64,000 nt of DNA, taken from contig JAZLFB010000280.1 of assembly GCA_045615585.1 (NCBI GenBank), positions 6,219 to 70,218 on the forward strand, read 5' to 3'. This document shows, piece after piece, positions 1,366-59,574 of this stretch. This DNA comes from Akkermansia sp. (GTDB lineage: Bacteria > Verrucomicrobiota > Verrucomicrobiia > Verrucomicrobiales > Akkermansiaceae). The first letter of the stretch is position 1, and every line of letters starts with the position of its first letter. A model generated the notes under the pieces. It saw nothing but the letters and a program-made list of their open reading frames with translations. It did not search any database and was not told where the DNA came from. The translations under genes were made by a program, and so were the position numbers.

Positions 1366-1582
1366 AAGTTGAAGGTTGAAATTACAAAGTGCGGCACGCT
1401 GACGCGTGCAGGAGGACGATGAACGCAAGGCGTTGGCGGCAGATATAAAAAGGATTAGCGCTTAAGTATATAGGTGGAGCTTATTTGGAAGTCTTGAAAA
1501 CGCTTTGCGTTTTATTTTCATCTCTGCGGCGTCAGCCGCACGAATGTTACAATTTCAACTTTCAACCTACAACTTTCAACTT
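1366..1582. repeat. Heptamer/hairpin inverted-arm element, copy 1
   Basis: Left arm: AAGTTGA-AGGTTGA-AATT then hairpin GCACGC-TGAC-GCGTGC (1394-1409). Right arm: hairpin TGCGGC-GTCA-GCCGCA (1525-1540) then TTCAACT-type heptamers to 1582. Confidence 0.85.
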
Positions 1583-8292: not shown

Positions 8293-8415
8293 AATAATGT
8301 AATGGGGTTCAGCGCAAAAGGGGCACAACGCCCCGCGCTGCCCCTGTTCTACAGCGAAACGACGGGGAAGTCAAGGAGATAGAAAGGCACAGGGCGGGAA
8401 ATGGATGTCATAAAG

Positions 8416-8679
8416 AAGTTTGAAGTTTGAGGTTGGAGGTTGGAAGTTTTGAGTTAGGCGCGGCTTCGCCGCGCGGAATTTTCGCCCGCGGTGCTAACAG
8501 CGACATGCCGTTTCGGTTGCCTTAGCCTGTAACACCCGAAACGCGGGTGATATGCCGTTAAATAATGTTGCCGTCTGAACTCATCGAAAGATGCAGCAAA
8601 CGCTCTGCGTTTCAGAATACTCGCACGCGCAGCGTGCCTAATTTTATACTTCCAACTTCCAACTTCCAACTTCCAACTT
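8416..8679. repeat. Heptamer/hairpin inverted-arm element, copy 2
   Basis: Left: AAGTTTG x2, AGGTTGG x2, hairpin GCGCGGC-TTC-GCCGCGC (8458-8474). Right: hairpin GCACGC-GCA-GCGTGC (8623-8637), then CTTCCAA x4 (8649-8676). Confidence 0.88.
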
Positions 8680-9240
8680 CCCCATGTACTCCTCCACGGC
8701 GGGGTGGAGCCAGCCTTGCGGCACAGGGGTACCCGCCTGTAGGGCAGCACGGATGGCAGAGGCCGAGGCGGGGTGGTCGCCGCAAAGGAAGGTACTTTGC
8801 ACTCCCTCCCTCGGTTGGGGGGCGGTGCCACGGTGGTAGACAATGAAATGCAGATGCTGCACCAGATACTCATAACGCCCCCAGCGGTGCAGCTCCTCCC
8901 ACTGGTCGGTACCCAGCAGCCAGTACAGGCGGGCGTGAGGGTAGAGCTGTGAAAAATGCTCAACCAAACGCCAGCTCCAGCTGGGCGGCGGCAGTTTCAA
9001 ATCCACATCCGAAACCTCCGCCCACGGCAGCTCCGCCGTGGCAAGGTGCAGCATCTCCAAGCGTTCCGCATCGGAGAAGCGACAGGTTTTACCCTGTTTG
9101 AAAGGGGAACAAGCGGCAGGCAGAAACAGCACCTTATCCAAGCCACAGGCGGCTTGGGCGGCGGCGGCAATGGCGGTATGCCCCGTGTGAACAGGGTCAA
9201 ACGAGCCGCCGAACAGGCAGATATGGGCCGCAGGCACCAT
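8644..9240 (-). CDS. nadD: Nicotinate-nucleotide adenylyltransferase
   Basis: FGGSFDPVHTGH, SPFK, LLGTDQ...WG and SASAIR motifs; start taken at ATG 9240. Confidence 0.93.
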   Translation of the reverse strand: MVPAAHICLFGGSFDPVHTGHTAIAAAAQAACGLDKVLFLPAACSPFKQGKTCRFSDAERLEMLHLATAELPWAEVSDVDLKLPPPSWSWRLVEHFSQLYPHARLYWLLGTDQWEELHRWGRYEYLVQHLHFIVYHRGTAPQPREGVQSTFLCGDHPASASAIRAALQAGTPVPQGWLHPAVEEYMGKLEVGSWKLEV

Positions 9241-17462: not shown

Positions 17463-17722
17463 AAGTTGAAAGTTGAAGGTTGAAATTGTAGAATTCGCGT
17501 GGCTGTCGCCACGTAGATGATAAAGAAAAGCAAAGCGTTTGCAAAGGCTTTTGTCGAATCCTGAAAACTGCTATTTATATCAGGCTGTCGGGTGCAATAG
17601 CACAAGATTCCTAAACGGCGTGTTGCATTTAGCCTTGCGTTCGATAATTCCGCGCACGCAGTGCGCCTAAATTCTCACTTCCAACTTCCAACTTCCAACT
17701 TCCAACTTCCAACCTCCAACTT
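17463..17722. repeat. Heptamer/hairpin inverted-arm element, copy 3
   Basis: Left: AAGTTGA x2, AGGTTGA, hairpin CGTGGC-TGTC-GCCACG (17498-17513). Right: hairpin GCGCAC-GCA-GTGCGC (17652-17666), then CTTCCAA x5 and CCTCCAA (17678-17719). Confidence 0.88.
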
Positions 17723-17726
17723 CCCC

Positions 17727-20496: not shown

Positions 20497-20730
20497 AAAA
20501 CGCCAGTTTTGAATCATTGTCCTCCCATACGGCTGCATGAGAAATAGGGATTTGGCAAGATGATATAATCCGAAAAAGTTCTAAGCCCGAGCTTCCGCAA
20601 TTCCGCGCAACGAGTCCTTGTGTTAGCAGATGGTGCTATTGTCTCTGCTGCTCTATGGGATTTTTCCGCCTCGCTTTCGCCACCCCGCCGCCTTTCGGGT
20701 TGCATGCAACCTTGTTTGATTGTTTGTTTG

Positions 20731-26488: not shown

Positions 26489-26606
26489 GCCCTCAGTTTA
26501 CGGAAAAACGCCGCACGCGTCAATGTTAATGAAAGATTACCCTTCCTTAGGAGGGGGTAGAAATGCCCCGGCAAATGGGGATTTGTCGCTCAGATGCACT
26601 CTATCA

Positions 26607-28208
26607 TCAAAAGTCTCGCCCCCAAGTTTCCCGGCGTGCCGCCGTCAACAAAGCCTCATTTTTATATTCCTCCGACAAACCTACCTCGGCAGGCACGGCG
26701 CCAAAGCCCAGCAACAGGCGGGCTATGCGGTCCTGTGCGGGGCGTTTGCCCTGCACCGCCGCCAAGGGGGAGGGTTCAACATTGGGGTTGGCGCCGTAAC
26801 GCAACAGAGTGTAGACCATCTGCTCATCTTCCCGCTCACAGGCGATACGCAGGGCGGATTTACCCGCAAGGTTGCACGCATCGGGCGAAACGCCGCGCGA
26901 CAGAGCGTTGGAAACCTCCGCATCCAAGCCGTATGCCACGGCATTCAGGAACAGGCAGGGCAGCATCTCGCGGTTGCCGATGGGGTCCGCCAAGGGAAAC
27001 GTCTCCCGCAGCAAGCGCCACACTACAGCTGGCGGCGTTTCGTCAGACTCGGCATCCTTGGCTTCGTTTTCCGCATACTCCCAATCAGATTCAAAGATTT
27101 CATCGATGATGCAGAAGGGATGCGCCCCTTTCGCCAACAGAATCCGCACCGTCTCCGCATCATTGTTCCAAATAGCCTCAGACAGGGGACCGTTACCCGA
27201 ATAGCCATCGTACGCCGTCGCATCCACCCCCAGTTCCAACAAGCGGTCAAAGACGTTGCGCGAGCAACTGTCGTAGGCATAATACAAGACGTTTCTGCCG
27301 TCAACATCACAGACATGCGGATTGGCCCCCGCCGCCAACAGCAGCGAGACAAGCTCATCATCTCCGCCCGCCGCAGCTTCTATCAAAGGGGTGCAACCAT
27401 ACGCATCACCCACCGAGGGGTCAGCGCCGTATTGCAACAGCAACTTGGCCAACGTGAGCCTTAAAGCTTTATCCCCGCACAGGCTGCATACCGAAAACAG
27501 CGCAGAGTCGGCACCATGTTCCGCAGGCTTATTCGGGTCTACGCCCGCCCGAAGCAATTTTTCCGTCAGCGCAACATCGGCCTTATCGACGGCGGCGGAA
27601 AGAGCAGTCTCCGGGGTCGCAGCCGTTATGCCCGCCGCCGACAACTCAGGTTGCAGGCGTGCGTAAGCGTCGGCATCCCAAATCGGCGCGCGGCGCAGCA
27701 GCACGCGCTCGCAATCGCGCAGCCAAGCCTTTTCCTCTGCCTCCTGCGTCTCCGCTGTCAGGCGGCGGCAGAAAACAAGCGGCGTTTCGCCCGCGGCATT
27801 CACGGCGGCAGGGTTCGCCCCGTGCTTCAACAGCCAGTCAATCGTTTCCGGTTTGCGAGCTTTCACCGCCAAATGCAGCGGCGCTTCACCCTGCGGCGTG
27901 GGGGTCAGCACATCGGGCTGCGACCAAAATTTCTCCAAGCACCATACAGAAAAGCAAAGCACCGCCGTCTGAAAAGCCGTTTCACCGTTTCGGGCTTTCA
28001 CAGCCACATCAGCCCCCTGCTCTATCAGCGTTCGGGCAATGTAGGTATTATGCCGCAGAGCCTCAATCAACAAAAACTCGCCGCTTGCCGCGCGGCTGTT
28101 CGGCGAAAGGCCCCGCGACAACAAATGCTGCAACAATTCGGCATCGTCGTAACGGAGAGCATCCTCAAACGTAAGGTCATAGGTAGGGTAATGTGTCTTG
28201 GTGTTCAT
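26607..28208 (-). CDS. Multi-ankyrin-repeat protein
   Basis: About 10 ankyrin-like units (GETAFQTA, GEAPLHLA, GETPLVF, GCTPLIEAAAGG, GRNVLYYA, GKSALRIAC); start ATG 28208. Confidence 0.88.
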   Translation of the reverse strand: MNTKTHYPTYDLTFEDALRYDDAELLQHLLSRGLSPNSRAASGEFLLIEALRHNTYIARTLIEQGADVAVKARNGETAFQTAVLCFSVWCLEKFWSQPDVLTPTPQGEAPLHLAVKARKPETIDWLLKHGANPAAVNAAGETPLVFCRRLTAETQEAEEKAWLRDCERVLLRRAPIWDADAYARLQPELSAAGITAATPETALSAAVDKADVALTEKLLRAGVDPNKPAEHGADSALFSVCSLCGDKALRLTLAKLLLQYGADPSVGDAYGCTPLIEAAAGGDDELVSLLLAAGANPHVCDVDGRNVLYYAYDSCSRNVFDRLLELGVDATAYDGYSGNGPLSEAIWNNDAETVRILLAKGAHPFCIIDEIFESDWEYAENEAKDAESDETPPAVVWRLLRETFPLADPIGNREMLPCLFLNAVAYGLDAEVSNALSRGVSPDACNLAGKSALRIACEREDEQMVYTLLRYGANPNVEPSPLAAVQGKRPAQDRIARLLLGFGAVPAEVGLSEEYKNEALLTAARRETWGRDF

Positions 28209-54541: not shown

Positions 54542-54608
54542 GCGCGGGCCAAGCCCGCGCGGAACTTGAACTTTATAAATTATAAATTATAAATTCTAAA
54601 TTATAAAT
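54542..54608. repeat. Solo heptamer/hairpin arm (AT-rich variant)
   Basis: Hairpin GCGCGGGC-CAA-GCCCGCGC (54542-54560), then TTATAAA x3, TTCTAAA, TTATAAA (54573-54607), ending 2 nt before a stop codon. Confidence 0.8.
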
Positions 54609-56049: not shown

Positions 56050-58653
56050 TTATTCCGTTTTCAGCGGCACCAGCGGCAGATAACGCATGGGGCGGGGCGG
56101 GGTCAGATTAATGGTGCAGTCAACGTTGGCAGAGGTCTCTTCTGCCGTGCTGACGGCAGAGCTGTCGGTAACTTCTTCTGCGGTGGCACCGTTGCTCACC
56201 AAATCATCTGCATCTTTGTACCGGGGGTGCAGTTCTGTTTCACAGCCGTAGGGGTCGGTACCCACCAAAGGACCGGACTTAGGCAGAATGGGAAGCACGG
56301 CCAACACGCGGGAGGAGGACATTTGCCCCACCCCCAAATCAAGGAAATCGGCCAGCGAGGGGCTGCCGTCGCCGTGTACGCCGCAGTGACCGAGCGTCAC
56401 ATCACCCTTCGGGAAATACTCGCGGTAGGTGTGGCGCACATAGGTGGCCTTGCCGTTTTCCATCACCGGTTCAAAGCAGAAATTGGTAGCAAGCTGTCCC
56501 GATGAGGTGCAGATTTCAACCTCCTCCGTATCGGCAGGCATGGGGATGGGTTCATCACCGTAATCGGCTGCCTTGGCCGCTTGGAACACGGCGCTCATAA
56601 TAGGCGCACAGGTGTCAGAGGCAAACGCCTGCGGGTAAATGGGCATGCGGTCGTTCAGGTACCCCATCCAGATACCGCAGGTGATACTGCTGTTGTAGGC
56701 AAAGAGGGCATTATTCGAAAAATCATAGTTGGTGCCGGTCTTGACGGCACCGTTGAAATCCTGCGGCAGCATGGGGCGCACGCGCTGGGCGCTGCCTTTC
56801 TCCATCGATTCGCGCATGATGCTGTGCAGGCGGAAAGCCGTGCACGGGGTAGCACAGTTCACCTTGGTCTTATTAACGGCGTGCTTGTTCTCCCACAGAA
56901 TCTTGCCGTTGCTGTCGGTAATTTTGGCAATGACATAGGGTGCCACGGGGCGGGTGCCTACGTTGGGGAAAACGGTATAGGCCATCGTCATCTCTTTGAG
57001 CGAGACCGGTTCTGCGCCGAGATAAACGCGGGGGTAATACTGCGGGCGAGCCTCGGTGCTGTTGGGGTTGCGGGCGGGCGGGGTGATACCCACACGTTCA
57101 AGCGTGTCGCAGTAATCCTTGGCGCCTTTCTGCGGGTGAGAACCCAGCGCAATTCCCAAGCGGGCAGAAGCGGCAATCTTTGACCATTCCAAGGCTTGAC
57201 GGGCGGTCACGGAATCCAGATAGCGCCCCTTTTCCACCTCCATACCCCATTCACCGAGAATACCTTCGCTGCCGCCGATACCTGTCAGGCGGTTGTCCAT
57301 AGCGTCATCCACCAGACGGGAACAAGGGGTATAGCCGTTATCGAAGGCGCACATGTAGAGAAAGGGCAGCATGGCGGTGCCCACGGGGCTGCGACCCGAT
57401 TCAATGATATCAAAGTTATCACGCTCGAAACTGCGACCGCCCACATAAGCCAGCACACCGCCCGTCTTGTTCTCCACCACATACACGGCACCGTCAAGAT
57501 AACGATGCCGGGCAAAGCGGGGGTCAGAGGTCTGACTGAACTTAACATGCTTGTAATCAGGGCGCTGTTCGATGTTTGCCAACTGCTCTTTGAGCGCGCT
57601 TTCTGCGGCTCTCTGCAACGAGGCGTCAATCGTGGTATAAATCTTGATACCGCGGCTCTTGATGATTTCCTCACCGCGCTGCGGGTTCTGGAAAATACCG
57701 ATAGCCTGTTGCTGCACCAAAGCGTGCAGGAACGATGTGTTGCGGCGGAGAGGCTTGGGGTTCAAATCCAACGGCTGCTCTTTCACTCGGGCGGCCTCAC
57801 CCGCCGTCAGCATACCGGAGCGCGCCATACGGTCCACCACGTCATTACGCCATTTGCGGTTAAGCTCGGGATTCTTAACAGGGTTGTAATTCTCCGGGTT
57901 CTTAATCAAGGCAGCGATACTGGCAGCCTCGCGCACGGTGAGGTCGGCAGGCTCTTTGCCGTAATACCCCAATGCAGCAGAGCGGATACCGTAGTAACCG
58001 CGACCGAAGTAAATGCGGTTCAGGTAGAACTCCATGATTTGCTGCTTGTCATACTTATCCTCAATGCGCATGGCAAGGAAGATTTCGACAATTTTACGCT
58101 CGTAGCGGCTGCCGCCGATAGCGGCGGTGCGTGCCTCCAAATCATAAGCATTGCGGGCCAGCTGCTGGGTGATGGTCGAGGCACCCTGGTTGGCATCGCC
58201 GTGGCGCAGAACGGCCTCTTTAGCGGCGCGGGCAATACCCATAGGGTCGAAACCGTGGTGTGTCCAGAACGTTTTATCCTCCTGTGCCACCAAGGCGTCA
58301 ATCATGCTGCGGGAGATTTTGTCGTAGGTAACGTAGCTGCGGTTTTCATCGTAGATACGCCCGATTTCCTCCTGATTGCGGTCGTAGATAATGCAGGGGT
58401 GGTCAAGGTTGTTAATGTCCTCCAAATCGAACTCATCCGCCCATTTCTGATATTTGGCGGTCACAGTCAAAAAGACGGCATAGCCCAAGCAGGCCATCAC
58501 AAGAGCGGTAACGGACCCCACCACAAAGCAACGCCAGAGAATGCTGCGCACCCAGCCGCCGAAGGTTCGGCGCTGGTCATTTTTCTGCCCCGATTTGCGG
58601 CGTCGGCCTCTGGCAGCCTTACGCTTATTCTGAAACTCGTTTAAATCATCCAT
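56050..58653 (-). CDS. Class A PBP (GT51 transglycosylase plus degenerate transpeptidase domain)
   Basis: EDKTFWTHHGFD, GASTITQQLARN, RKIVE and YLNRIYFG are intact; KTGT is present but SxxK reads GTAML. Confidence 0.88.
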   Translation of the reverse strand: MDDLNEFQNKRKAARGRRRKSGQKNDQRRTFGGWVRSILWRCFVVGSVTALVMACLGYAVFLTVTAKYQKWADEFDLEDINNLDHPCIIYDRNQEEIGRIYDENRSYVTYDKISRSMIDALVAQEDKTFWTHHGFDPMGIARAAKEAVLRHGDANQGASTITQQLARNAYDLEARTAAIGGSRYERKIVEIFLAMRIEDKYDKQQIMEFYLNRIYFGRGYYGIRSAALGYYGKEPADLTVREAASIAALIKNPENYNPVKNPELNRKWRNDVVDRMARSGMLTAGEAARVKEQPLDLNPKPLRRNTSFLHALVQQQAIGIFQNPQRGEEIIKSRGIKIYTTIDASLQRAAESALKEQLANIEQRPDYKHVKFSQTSDPRFARHRYLDGAVYVVENKTGGVLAYVGGRSFERDNFDIIESGRSPVGTAMLPFLYMCAFDNGYTPCSRLVDDAMDNRLTGIGGSEGILGEWGMEVEKGRYLDSVTARQALEWSKIAASARLGIALGSHPQKGAKDYCDTLERVGITPPARNPNSTEARPQYYPRVYLGAEPVSLKEMTMAYTVFPNVGTRPVAPYVIAKITDSNGKILWENKHAVNKTKVNCATPCTAFRLHSIMRESMEKGSAQRVRPMLPQDFNGAVKTGTNYDFSNNALFAYNSSITCGIWMGYLNDRMPIYPQAFASDTCAPIMSAVFQAAKAADYGDEPIPMPADTEEVEICTSSGQLATNFCFEPVMENGKATYVRHTYREYFPKGDVTLGHCGVHGDGSPSLADFLDLGVGQMSSSRVLAVLPILPKSGPLVGTDPYGCETELHPRYKDADDLVSNGATAEEVTDSSAVSTAEETSANVDCTINLTPPRPMRYLPLVPLKTE

Positions 58654-58747
58654 TTCGCTGCCCTTAACTCTAGCACAAAGCAAGCATCATGGCAAGAACG
58701 AAGAAACGGAATAAGCGGGAGAAAGTTGTTACCGCCAATAGAGCAAA

Positions 58748-59086
58748 TCGACAAATGGGGAGTTTGTAGGGATGTTTGAAGTTTGATGTTTGATGTTTGA
58801 AGTATAAAGTTCGCCGCGCTACGCGCGGTAGATTCCTTGCTCCACGCTTACTGCCCCGCCGCTGAAAAGCGGCGGATTTACCCCGTATTAAACCAAGCTT
58901 TTTACCGAAGCCATGCTACGCGCTTTGCGTTACCCGCATTTCGGGTGAAACATCACAATGTTCCATAACGGTGGGCGAGTTCCGCTCTGCGGTCTGAAAT
59001 TCCCGCACGCCGCAGGCGTGCCTAAATTTGCACATCAAACTTCAAACATCAAACTTCAAACATTTCGACAAATCCCCATTTATCGA
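58748..59086. repeat. Heptamer/hairpin inverted-arm element, copy 4 (about 85-bp imperfect terminal inverted repeats)
   Basis: Left: TCGACAAATGGGGAGTTTGTAGGG, (A/T)GTTTGA-type heptamers, hairpin CCGCGC-TAC-GCGCGG (58814-58828). Right: hairpin GCACGCC-GCA-GGCGTGC (59005-59021), TCAAAC(A/T) heptamers, TTCGACAAATCCCCATTTATCGA. Confidence 0.9.
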
Positions 59087-59175
59087 CGAGCGCCCAATCC
59101 CCCGCACCCGATGTGCGCCGCAATTCAACTTTTCCCGCGCTTGCCACCGCCGCCGTTTCATGCTACCATAGAGCC

Positions 59176-59574
59176 ATGCCTTACAAGAGTTTTGAAGCTG
59201 CGGTGGATGCCGTGATGCAGCGGCACCCCGAATACGCCCCCGACGCCTACGCCTTTATGCGGGCGGCGTTGGATGAGACGAGCCGCAAGGTGGTGACACC
59301 CGACCGCACGCCGCATCTCTCTGCCGAAGAGCTGTATCTGGGCTTCTGCGCCTATGCGCTGGAGGAGTTCGGACCGATGGCGGCGGCGGTAATGGAACAT
59401 TGGGGCATCAGCACTTCCTCCGACGTGGGGGCGATTGTGTACAACCTGATTGAAGTGGGCGTGTTCGGCAAGCAGTCGGGCGACACCCGAGAACAGTTTG
59501 ACGGACTGGCCCCGCTGACCGCGCTCCTGAACGCGCCTTACGAACCCGAAACCAAGAAAAAACGTCGCAAATGA
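59176..59574 (+). CDS. Minf_1886-like Verrucomicrobia/Planctomycetes conserved protein
   Basis: YAPDAYAF...HLSAEEL..G...A..EFGPMA..V.EHWGI.TSSDVG.IVYNLIEVGVFGKQ.GD..E.F. Confidence 0.8.
   Translation: MPYKSFEAAVDAVMQRHPEYAPDAYAFMRAALDETSRKVVTPDRTPHLSAEELYLGFCAYALEEFGPMAAAVMEHWGISTSSDVGAIVYNLIEVGVFGKQSGDTREQFDGLAPLTALLNAPYEPETKKKRRK

What the first reader, a model, noticed from the sequence alone, without database searches (positions are those of the whole stretch)
58748..59086. Most complete copy: about 85-bp imperfect terminal inverted repeats resembling a MITE between divergent genes
Left arm: TCGACAAATGGGGAGTTTGTAGGGATGTTTGAAGTTTGATGTTTGATGTTTGAAG. Reverse complement of the right arm: TCGATAAATGGGGATTTGTCGAAATGTTTGAAGTTTGATGTTTGAAGTTTGATG. 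They align over the whole length, so the inverted repeat extends about 25 bp beyond the heptamers. The element occupies most of the gap between the divergent PBP1A and Minf_1886-like genes. This outer segment is the best candidate for a true element end.
Basis: seen in the sequence. Interest (0 to 1): 0.65.

Follow-up and report, generated by a model that had tools for sequence, protein, structure and literature searches.

The report
Heptamer-armed foldback repeat with palindromic caps
The 339-base stretch between two back-to-back genes is a gene-less, hairpin-forming copy of a large family of small inserted repeats in this gut Akkermansia-type genome. Its outermost bases are a conserved palindromic "cap" that also ends other repeat families here and in a few related species.

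Summary
Window 58748-58827 and 59008-59086 form an imperfect inverted repeat of about 80 nt: outer palindrome, heptamer array, A/T linker, GC mini-hairpin. The whole element folds far better than shuffles (z -12 as RNA, -10 as DNA).

It is one copy of a modular repeat superfamily.
- This 3.39-Mb genome holds about 137 heptamer arms. 81 of 129 have an inverted partner on the hairpin side.
- The outer motif ACAAATCCCCATTT occurs 29 times exactly, with 122 hits at up to 2 mismatches.
- Two other copies share this core at 97-100% identity, and their similarity stops right after CCCCATTT.
- Relatives show empty orthologous sites for other family members.
- Within the genus the motifs are patchy: the outer motif is in 17 of 151 genomes, arrays in 26 of 151.

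The MITE reading is partly supported.
- There is no target duplication at the outer motif.
- In better-preserved copies the cap lies just inside IS4-type tips with 9-bp duplications, and a roughly 1.5-kb IS4-family IS with the same tips has at least 10 copies.
- The focal copy lacks recognisable IS4 tips, and most heptamer elements lack both the tips and the cap.
- All three four-helix-bundle (23S-rRNA-IVS-protein) genes lie inside such elements.

How the elements move is unresolved. Interest is moderate.

The parts
58748..58769 (.). Left outer palindrome (cap): TCGACAAATGGGGAGTTTGTAG, with a 1-nt insertion relative to the consensus
   Evidence: The consensus of 81 genomic ends is the 9-6-9 palindrome CTCGACAAA-TCCCCA-TTTGTCGAG.
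58771..58811 (+). Left heptamer array (GTTTGAW x 5.4; 14-nt super-period)
   Evidence: Tandem Repeats Finder; pattern statistics.
58814..58830 (.). Left GC mini-hairpin. In arm orientation it reads ACCGCGC-GTA-GCGCGGC, a GNA triloop.
   Evidence: 100 of 134 arms genome-wide have a GC stem of at least 6 bp placed 9-14 nt from the array, against 5-10% in controls.
58831..59005 (.). Core: a chain of small hairpins (CCGCCGC-TGAAAA-GCGGCGG, ACGCGCTTTGCGT, ACCCGCATTTCGGGT, CCGCTCTGCGG). It has no ORF, no promoter-like site and no Rfam match.
   Evidence: It is 97% identical over 228 nt to C325:8917-9144 and 100% over 62 nt to C317:1-62.
59006..59022 (.). Right GC mini-hairpin GCACGCC-GCA-GGCGTGC, followed by the linker CTAAATTTG (59023-59031)
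59032..59063 (+). Right heptamer array (ACATCAA/ACTTCAA; 14-nt unit x 2.3, 100% match)
59065..59086 (.). Right outer palindrome (cap): TCGACAAATCCCCATTTATCGA
   Evidence: Similarity to copies C325 and C317 ends after CCCCATTT.
58722..58747 (.). Possible decayed IS4-type tip (GTTACCGCCAATAGAGCAAA against CATTACCATCCCATAGAGC...). The match is suggestive only.
   Evidence: alignment score 14 against 11 +/- 2.3 for shuffles, which is not significant.
8415..8681 (.). Second complete family member in the window (arrays, hairpins and core; no outer motif)
17463..17724 (.). Third complete family member in the window (no outer motif)
1460..1582 (+). Half element: sub-terminal segment, hairpin, linker and TTTCAAC array
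54542..54608 (-). Solo arm (TTATAAA array, linker, hairpin) inserted in an operon junction that is empty in 58 of 58 relatives
26573..26661 (.). 89-bp mini-element bounded by two inverted outer motifs, without arrays
20515..20670 (+). 'Empty shell' MITE: short IS4-type left arm, a single outer motif and a roughly 105-nt right arm ending in CTCTATGGGAT, with no cargo

Best explanation
The focal sequence is a gene-less, non-autonomous copy of a modular foldback repeat, a 'heptamer-armed hairpin element'. It reached this intergenic site as DNA and now lies upstream of, and outside, the two divergent promoters.

Anatomy (shown): two inverted end modules, each reading outer palindrome, heptamer array, A/T-rich linker, GC mini-hairpin with a GNA triloop. 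They surround a core built of small hairpins.

Shown:
- The family is abundant in this genome and patchy across the genus.
- Members are insertions relative to orthologous sites in relatives.
- Near-identical copies of this very core sit at other loci, and their homology ends at the outer palindrome.
- The palindrome (consensus CTCGACAAA-TCCCCA-TTTGTCGAG) caps several otherwise unrelated repeat families here and in other species.

Inferred: the palindromic cap is the end recognised by whatever moves or exchanges these units.

The only mobilising enzyme with positive evidence is an IS4-family DDE transposase. Its 16-19-nt tips (CATTRCCATCCCATAGAG) lie 8-12 nt outside the cap in about a third of ends. 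In two intact composites these tips are flanked by 9-bp target duplications, and one of those composites carries a heptamer element between two caps. I therefore read capped heptamer elements as cargo that can ride in IS4-type MITE shells.

The focal copy has no recognisable IS4 tips, so it is probably immobile by that route. It more likely arrived by an event whose junction was the cap itself, either recombination at the palindrome or an unidentified enzyme.

Full-length relatives of the family carry a four-helix-bundle (TIGR02436, 23S-rRNA-IVS protein) gene in place of the core. The short copies therefore look like deletion derivatives of that kind of element.
For: Architecture and statistics:
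- The focal anatomy and its significance rest.
- The genome holds 137 period-7 arrays, each preceded by a hairpin and linker.
- 81 of 129 arms have an inverted partner 40-420 nt inward, against 3 of 127 outward.
- 100 of 134 arms have a GC hairpin, with 23 distinct stems and mostly GCA/GTA/GAA loops, against 5-10% in controls.

Mobility:
- C325 and C317 carry the same core at 97-100% identity with different flanks.
- G055 has a roughly 200-nt element where the own genome reads TGAcaaccATG.
- The solo arm at 54542-54608 is absent from 58 of 58 relatives.
- Distribution is patchy: outer motif in 17 of 151 genomes, arrays in 26 of 151.

Cap as the end:
- 122 hits at up to 2 mismatches cap both array and non-array families.
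- Information content drops after ATTT.
- In G100 the same cap ends other families, and the flanks diverge immediately after it.

IS4 link:
- The IS ends sit at 20 contig ends and the transposase is DDE/IS4 family.
- Complete copies of about 1.5 kb occur in G107 and G128.
- Matching a-end and b-end flanks shows a 9-bp target duplication (reading of the sequences).
- C181:18460-19165 has a 9 of 9 duplication and C203:5066-5439 an 8 of 9 duplication with heptamer cargo.
- 30 of 82 capped ends have an IS4 tip within 145 nt outward, against 0.8% of random windows.
- An empty shell lies at window 20515-20670.

Four-helix-bundle link:
- All 3 TIGR02436 genes sit inside array-hairpin elements, as does G113:C87.
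- All 26 array-bearing genomes have the gene, against 78 of 125 others.
Against: - There is no target duplication at the cap boundary, so no transposition footprint for the unit that ends there.
- The flanks of the focal copy do not match IS4-type arms above chance.
- Most heptamer elements, including the other two in the window and the G055 operon insertion, have neither a cap nor IS4 tips. IS4 therefore cannot explain the spread of the family as a whole.
- Copy numbers do not scale. G100 has 19 caps and 0 exact IS4 tips, and G055 has 48 caps and 1 tip.
- Several genomes have plain arrays without hairpins or cores, so arrays can also arise by simple slippage.
- No reads or same-species genomes could be examined, so there is no direct evidence of current mobility, excision or inversion.
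- The co-occurrence tests are not corrected for phylogeny.
Confidence: 0.6

Rival explanations
1. This is a classical MITE in the strict sense: an internal-deletion derivative of the IS4-family IS, moved in trans by its transposase. The true ends would be the IS4 tips, and the outer motif and heptamer arrays would be only sub-terminal sequence. The focal copy would then be an old MITE whose tips have decayed.
For: - The tips are identical to the IS ends, and two intact composites show 9-bp duplications.
- IS4 tips are 40-fold enriched next to caps.
- An empty shell MITE exists in the window.
- Presence of the cap and presence of the tip are associated across genomes (p = 0.002, uncorrected).
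Against: - The interior of near-identical copies is 97-100% conserved, yet the sequence beyond the cap is unrelated between them. Decay cannot erase the tips while the core stays intact.
- The focal flanks are not significantly tip-like.
- G100 has many caps but no exact tip.
- Most heptamer elements lack tips.
Confidence: 0.2
2. This is an IVS-type element. Heptamer-armed hairpins would be the intergenic form of the selfish elements that interrupt 23S rRNA and carry the S23p four-helix-bundle gene. They would spread by an unknown mechanism that depends on that protein or a host factor. Once transcribed, the arms would pair into a long duplex cut by RNase III, so insertions in operons would be tolerated. 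The cap would be a lineage-specific addition.
For: - All three TIGR02436 genes of the genome lie between array-hairpin arms, and their sub-terminal segments (GCGCTTTGCGT..., GGCTATTAGCTTCGC...) recur in the gene-less copies.
- G113 shows the same arrangement.
- Arrays occur only in genomes that have the gene (26 of 26, p = 2e-5).
- Insertions sit in tight operon junctions.
- The arms form a stem of about 60 bp when folded as RNA.
- The Coxiella burnetii IVS is a 428-nt selfish element with an S23p ORF, excised by RNase III (PMC4990558).
Against: - The four-helix-bundle protein has no known catalytic activity.
- 78 genomes have the gene but no arrays of the type searched.
- There is no expression or cleavage data.
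- This reading does not explain the cap or the IS4 tips.
Confidence: 0.15
3. This is an invertible or exchangeable cassette. The two caps would be inverted core sites (9-6-9 with an asymmetric spacer) for a site-specific recombinase that flips or swaps the segment between the divergent genes.
For: - The site has the geometry of a recombinase core site, and its spacer is inverted between the two ends.
- In near-identical copies the inner half-site travels with the core while the outer half-site differs.
- A shell with a single site exists.
Against: - There is no promoter-like sequence inside the segment.
- No recombinase has been linked to it.
- No read evidence could be obtained.
- Integration through a single crossover would give directly repeated sites, not inverted ones.
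Confidence: 0.04
4. This is a REP/BIME- or REPIN-type host palindrome maintained by a RAYT (Y1 HUH) transposase.
For: The interior is a mosaic of GC hairpin modules. GNA triloops are typical of stable single-stranded DNA hairpins (the stability of d(GCGAAGC)-type loops is from my own knowledge).
Against: The 99.75%-complete genome has no Y1_Tnp (PF01797) match, while the control genomes scored.
Confidence: 0.01

Closest known systems
MITEs derived from IS4-family insertion sequences
   Same: Small, gene-less and multi-copy, with long inverted ends that fold back. In intact composites the terminal 16-19 nt equal the IS tips and are flanked by the same 9-bp duplication as the IS.
   Different: - The focal copy and most family members lack those tips.
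- The conserved end is a palindromic cap internal to the tips.
- The arms are tandem heptamer arrays plus a mini-hairpin.
- No duplication flanks the cap.
23S rRNA intervening sequences carrying the S23p / four-helix-bundle ORF (Coxiella burnetii IVS, PMC4990558; Leptospira IVS from my own knowledge)
   Same: A short selfish insertion bounded by inverted repeats that form a long stem. Full-length members carry a TIGR02436 gene.
   Different: - Here the elements lie between protein genes, not in rRNA.
- The arms are heptamer arrays.
- Most copies have lost the ORF.
- RNase III processing was not tested.
Heptameric intergenic repeats: STRR of heterocystous cyanobacteria (my own knowledge) and GGGAATC / GGGGAYT repeats of Xanthomonas and Nostoc (PMC4692102)
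   Same: Tandem 7-nt units, strongly intergenic, close to gene ends, and variable between relatives.
   Different: Here the arrays come as inverted pairs with a fixed hairpin-and-linker grammar around a core. They are A/C-rich rather than G-rich, and some carry a conserved palindromic cap.
REP / BIME / REPIN elements with RAYT
   Same: Dispersed intergenic mosaics of GC-rich hairpin modules. Stem sequences vary while pairing is kept.
   Different: There is no RAYT in the genome, and heptamer arrays and the cap have no counterpart in REP elements.
pdif modules of Acinetobacter plasmids (my own knowledge)
   Same: Discrete cargo segments bounded by inverted palindromic recombination-type sites. 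The same cargo is found in different contexts, with homology ending at the site.
   Different: The site sequence is unrelated to dif. No Xer or other recombinase is implicated, and the elements are chromosomal, non-coding and far smaller.

Membership tests
MITE (non-autonomous DDE element) | Small size (<~600 bp) with no transposase ORF | tested here: met
   339 bp. The only ORF at or above 60 aa touching the element (58958..59215, 85 aa) starts inside its right part and runs out through the promoter of the Minf_1886 gene. The core copies in C325 and C317 carry no gene.
MITE (non-autonomous DDE element) | Terminal inverted repeats | tested here: met
   Imperfect inverted repeat of about 80 nt.
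MITE (non-autonomous DDE element) | Multiple dispersed copies and insertion polymorphism | tested here: met
   3 copies of this core, about 137 arms, and empty orthologous sites for other members. The focal site itself could not be compared.
MITE (non-autonomous DDE element) | Target-site duplication flanking the ends | tested here: not met
   At the cap boundary direct flank matches average 2.2 of 6 across 14 elements. A 9-bp duplication is seen only around IS4-type tips in C181 and C203.
MITE (non-autonomous DDE element) | Ends match the ends of an autonomous IS in the same genome | tested here: inconclusive
   Met for composites with the CTATGGGATGGYAATG tips. Not met for the focal copy. 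No IS ending in the cap was found.
IS4-family insertion sequence (candidate partner) | DDE_Tnp_1 / IS4 transposase, short terminal inverted repeats, 9-bp duplication | tested here: met
   PF01609 at 76 bits. NF033592 at 225 bits against a cut-off of 115. Terminal repeat CATTRCCATCCCATAG. 9-bp duplications are seen from matched contig ends and in G107.
IVS-type / four-helix-bundle heptamer-armed hairpin element | Inverted arms flanking a TIGR02436 (PF05635) gene in full-length members | tested here: met
   3 of 3 such genes in the genome lie between array-hairpin arms. The focal copy is gene-less.
IVS-type / four-helix-bundle heptamer-armed hairpin element | Transcribed stem processed by RNase III | not testable with these tools
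Only the predicted stem of about 60 bp is available.
REP/BIME/REPIN | Cognate RAYT (Y1 HUH transposase) in the genome | tested here: not met
   PF01797 gave 0 matches while the controls were positive.
Inverton (invertible promoter) | Promoter inside the segment flanked by inverted repeats | tested here: not met
   No sigma-70-like site lies between 58748 and 59086. Both promoters lie outside.
Inverton (invertible promoter) | Both orientations present in reads | not testable with these tools
Known structured RNA (Rfam, including the Gut-1 motif) | Covariance-model match | tested here: not met
   No hit at the gathering threshold in the window. No hit at E <= 1 on the focal locus and four related loci.

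The most novel reading that the evidence does not exclude
The 9-6-9 palindromic cap would be a dedicated recombination or recognition site, conserved across several Akkermansia-lineage species. It would let heptamer-armed hairpin cargo be inserted into, exchanged between or flipped within pre-existing capped sites, including the shells of IS4-type MITEs. The inner half-site would travel with the cargo and the outer half-site would stay with the recipient. These elements would be the intergenic form of the four-helix-bundle (S23p/IVS) selfish element. That would give both bacterial heptamer repeats and rRNA intervening sequences a concrete, testable mobility site.
Probability: 0.15. Interest if true: 0.8.

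Novelty: new variant of a known kind. Interest (0 to 1): 0.55.

Why it matters
Intergenic heptamer repeats (STRR and similar) and the four-helix-bundle 'IVS protein' elements have been known for decades, but no mechanism of spread has been established. This genome offers an unusually readable case.
- The same hairpin-and-array grammar occurs with a sharply bounded, cross-species conserved palindromic cap.
- It sits next to a recently active IS4 element whose tips and 9-bp duplications frame some copies.
- Empty and filled sites are available for comparison.

Together these give concrete substrates for binding and transposition assays. On the practical side, these repeats account for much of the fragmentation of Akkermansia-type MAGs, since contigs break at them. 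They also mark synteny breakpoints and sit in operon junctions and next to promoters of housekeeping genes such as PBP1A and suf. They may therefore affect expression and genome rearrangement in a lineage closely related to a much-studied gut genus.

Tried and rejected
- Rfam: nothing at the gathering threshold on the window or at E <= 1 on five element loci.
- RAYT/IS200 partner: no Y1_Tnp in the genome.
- Target duplication at the outer motif: absent on average. The ATCGAC repeat at this copy is not general.
- IS4-type arms beyond the focal caps: not above shuffles.
- Empty site at the focal locus: impossible. PBP1A and the Minf_1886 gene are not neighbours in any relative examined.
- Exact-protein look-up of the Minf_1886 protein to find same-species contigs: not on record.
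- Promoter inside the element (inverton idea): none found.
- Arrays as promoter-linked UP-like modules: arms face gene 5' ends and 3' ends equally (50 against 51, crude gene calls). Only 20 of 135 arms have a strict sigma-70 site within 80 nt outward, so I read this as simple intergenic location.
- Literature: no paper combining Akkermansia with 'miniature inverted-repeat' was relevant. The searches for STRR/MITE and for IVS/four-helix-bundle gave only general context.
- An IS bounded by the cap itself: no pair of caps lies 0.7-3 kb apart.

Full report
**1. The observation**

A gapped alignment joins them into one inverted repeat of about 80 nt, 58748-58827 against the reverse complement of 59008-59086.

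Read inward from each end, the arm has five parts:
- a palindromic outer motif: TCGACAAATGGGGAGTTTGTAG on the left, TCGACAAATCCCCATTTATCGA on the right;
- a heptamer array: 58771-58811 and 59032-59063;
- an A/T-rich linker;
- a GC mini-hairpin: 58814-58830 and 59006-59022;
- then the 175-nt core of small hairpins.

None of this is chance. The heptamer pattern has 8 hits against 0.05 expected. The 16-mer has 6 hits at up to 3 mismatches against 0.66 expected, 2 of them exact. The element folds at z = -12 as RNA and z = -10 as DNA, with a terminal stem of about 60 bp.

The neighbours are as stated. One is a class A PBP whose ATG is at 58653 on the minus strand. The other is a Minf_1886-family protein (TIGR04138) starting at 59176. 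Both sigma-70-like promoters lie outside the element, and no promoter-like or terminator-like site lies inside it.

**2. The family in this genome**

The window is C280:6219-70218 of a 3.39-Mb, 335-contig assembly with 57% GC. Its nearest public relatives are Akkermansia and Akkermansiaceae MAGs from herbivore guts, at about 65-74% PBP1A identity.

A period-7 scan finds 137 arrays. Nearly all are preceded by the same grammar of GC hairpin, 9-14-nt linker (CTAAATTT, CGAACTT, CTAACTC) and an array of about 30 nt. The units are ACTTCCA, TTTCAAC, ACATCAA, ATCGTAC or TTATAAA.

- Arms come in inverted pairs. 81 of 129 have a partner 40-420 nt on the hairpin side, against 3 of 127 on the outer side. 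The GT-rich array is always on the left and the CA-rich array on the right.
- 100 of 134 arms have a GC stem of at least 6 bp at the expected place, against 5% for shuffles and 10.5% for random genomic 45-mers. There are 23 different stem sequences, and the loops are mostly GCA, GTA or GAA. Pairing is therefore kept while the sequence changes.
- Arms face gene 5' ends and 3' ends equally often, and often abut the stop or start codon (crude gene calls).
- The window holds two more complete members (8415-8681, 17463-17724), a half element (about 1460-1582) and a solo arm (54542-54608).

**3. Are they insertions?**

Yes, for the family as a whole.

- The focal core (58823-59050) recurs at C325:8917-9144 (97% over 228 nt) and at C317:1-62 (100%). 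Both have different flanks.
- A related species, G055, has an element of about 200 nt between the stop of one gene and the ATG of the next. At that site the own genome has only TGAcaaccATG.
- The solo arm at 54542-54608 lies in a gene junction that is tiny, mostly an overlapping TGATG, in 58 of 58 relatives.
- Across 151 genomes of the genus, arrays of this type occur in 26 and the outer motif in 17. Counts range from 1 to 48.

The focal site itself cannot be compared. In relatives PBP1A is preceded by another gene (the orthologue of own C199:3418-4845) and a 60-80-nt promoter region. The Minf_1886 gene there is paired with a different divergent gene (the orthologue of own C20:15797-16441). 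In the own genome that orthologue abuts another heptamer element, at C20:15507-15725. The focal element therefore sits at a synteny breakpoint. Three relatives (L009, L019, L021) independently carry a heptamer element or arm upstream of PBP1A.

**4. The outer motif**

ACAAATCCCCATTT has 29 exact copies and 122 hits at up to 2 mismatches, some of them chance hits. It caps heptamer arms. It also caps several families that have no arrays, where a hairpin of the GCGCGGC-nnn-GCCGCGC type is followed by about 20 nt and then the motif. Among these are long palindromic elements of 450-700 bp.

The consensus of 81 ends is the palindrome CTCGACAAA-TCCCCA-TTTGTCGAG. Information is high through ...CCCCATTT, modest over the next TCGA, and near zero beyond. 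In the three near-identical copies of the focal core, similarity ends exactly after CCCCATTT. In another species, G100, the same cap ends other families with other heptamers, and the flanks again diverge immediately.

No target duplication flanks the cap. Direct flank matches average 2.2 of 6 and inverted matches 2.5 of 6. The ATCGAC/ATCGAC repeat at the focal copy is the single perfect case, and it is what a palindromic site would give anyway.

The view that it behaves like a DDE-type MITE end is not.

**5. A second layer: IS4-type tips**

Beyond the cap, many ends continue as GTCGA-nnn-GCTCTATGGGATGGCAATG. The same 16-19 nt terminate a multi-copy IS whose two ends sit at 20 contig ends.

- Its transposase fragments are DDE_Tnp_1.
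- Complete copies of about 1.5 kb in G107 and G128 encode a 450-aa IS4-family transposase (NF033592, 225 bits).
- Matching the flanks of opposite ends on different contigs shows 9-bp duplications: ATTATAAAT, GATACAAAA, AATCAATTA (my reading). G107 shows ATTTTCTTC / ATTTTCTGC.
- Several insertions lie inside AT-rich heptamer arrays.

Two intact composites have these tips at both ends with 9-bp duplications. C181:18460-19165 has a 9 of 9 match. C203:5066-5439 has an 8 of 9 match and carries an ATCGTAC-type heptamer element between two caps.

30 of 82 capped ends have a tip within 145 nt outward, against 0.8% of random windows. A shell with tips, one cap and no cargo lies at window 20515-20670.

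There are limits to this link. The focal flanks are not tip-like above chance. Most heptamer elements have neither cap nor tip. Copy numbers do not scale across genomes: G100 has 19 caps and 0 exact tips, and G055 has 48 caps and 1. Presence and absence are positively associated, but the test is not corrected for phylogeny.

**6. Link to four-helix-bundle genes**

All three TIGR02436 / PF05635 genes of the genome lie between array-linker-hairpin arms: C241:2968-3530, C121:17330-17892 and C121:19010-19565. The sub-terminal segments on their 3' side are the same as those in the gene-less copies. G113 shows the same arrangement.

All 26 array-bearing genomes have the gene, against 78 of 125 others (p = 2e-5, uncorrected). 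The gene family is the one found in 23S-rRNA intervening sequences, which are selfish elements bounded by a stem cut by RNase III (PMC4990558).

I reached this link before reading the scan's earlier notes. Those notes describe the same association in other phyla. They are leads, not evidence.

**7. What was excluded**

- No Rfam family matches.
- There is no RAYT or Y1 transposase.
- There is no internal promoter.
- No IS is bounded by the cap itself.

**8. Verdict**

The finding is a real and fairly complete copy of a modular foldback repeat. Its outer palindrome is a genuine, cross-species conserved terminal module.

The label 'MITE' fits the form: small, gene-less, long inverted ends, many copies, insertion polymorphism in the family. 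Two defining tests fail at this copy. There is no target duplication at the cap, and there are no IS-matching tips.

My best reading, at 0.6, is a capped heptamer-armed hairpin element. Such elements can ride in IS4-type MITE shells, but this copy last moved or was exchanged at the cap itself, by a mechanism not yet identified.

Nothing like this is described for Akkermansia in the papers searched. In kind, it is a new variant of known repeat classes: MITE and foldback elements, IVS-type elements and heptamer repeats.

Noticed in passing
window 54542-54608: A solo arm (TTATAAA array, linker, GC hairpin, then an SD-like AAAGAGGA) sits between the stop of a 467-aa gene and the ATG of a SufS-like gene. 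In 58 of 58 relatives this junction is at most about 50 nt, mostly an overlapping TGATG. The arm is therefore an insertion into a tight operon junction.
   Followed up: yes
window 20515-20670: A roughly 155-bp 'empty shell' MITE. It has a short IS4-type left arm, a single copy of the outer motif (AAATAGGGATTTGG) and a roughly 105-nt right arm with the AAAAGTTCTAAGCCC motif, ending in CTCTATGGGAT. There is no cargo.
   Followed up: partly
genome contig C280:1-140 (about 6 kb upstream of the window start) and 19 other contig ends: An IS4-family IS of about 1.5 kb with at least 10 identical copies breaks the assembly. Matched ends show 9-bp duplications, and several copies are inserted inside AT-rich heptamer arrays.
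   Followed up: yes
genome C241:2968-3530; C121:17330-17892; C121:19010-19565: All three four-helix-bundle (TIGR02436, 23S-rRNA-IVS protein) genes of the genome are enclosed by array-linker-hairpin arms. The arrays abut the neighbouring genes' stop and start codons, for example ...TTTCAACTTT-ATG of a gene whose N-terminus (MATAIKIIVGLGNPGRDY) looks like peptidyl-tRNA hydrolase.
   Followed up: partly
window 58654-59175 compared with relatives (L001-L060, L094-L099): The PBP1A / Minf_1886 junction is a synteny breakpoint. The ancestral neighbours of both genes are elsewhere in this genome, and one of them lies next to another heptamer element (C20:15507-15725). Three relatives independently have heptamer elements or arms upstream of PBP1A.
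   Followed up: partly
genome C181:18506-19040; C145:590-1060; C36:43978-44480: Capped palindromic cargo of 450-530 bp with long, GC-rich internal inverted repeats (for example GGCGGGTTGCATTACGCCCCCCATAACCCTGCCGAATGGCAGGGTGG). There is no Rfam match and its function is unknown.
   Followed up: partly
L073, L077, L080 (G148, G113, G128): Some related species carry very long plain heptamer arrays (97-180 nt) between genes, without the hairpin or core. One ends 4 nt before a start codon. Arrays can therefore exist and expand on their own.
   Followed up: no
window 26573-26661: An 89-bp mini-element bounded by two inverted outer motifs without arrays. It lies just after a gene that the first-stage notes call an ankyrin-repeat gene.
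   Followed up: partly
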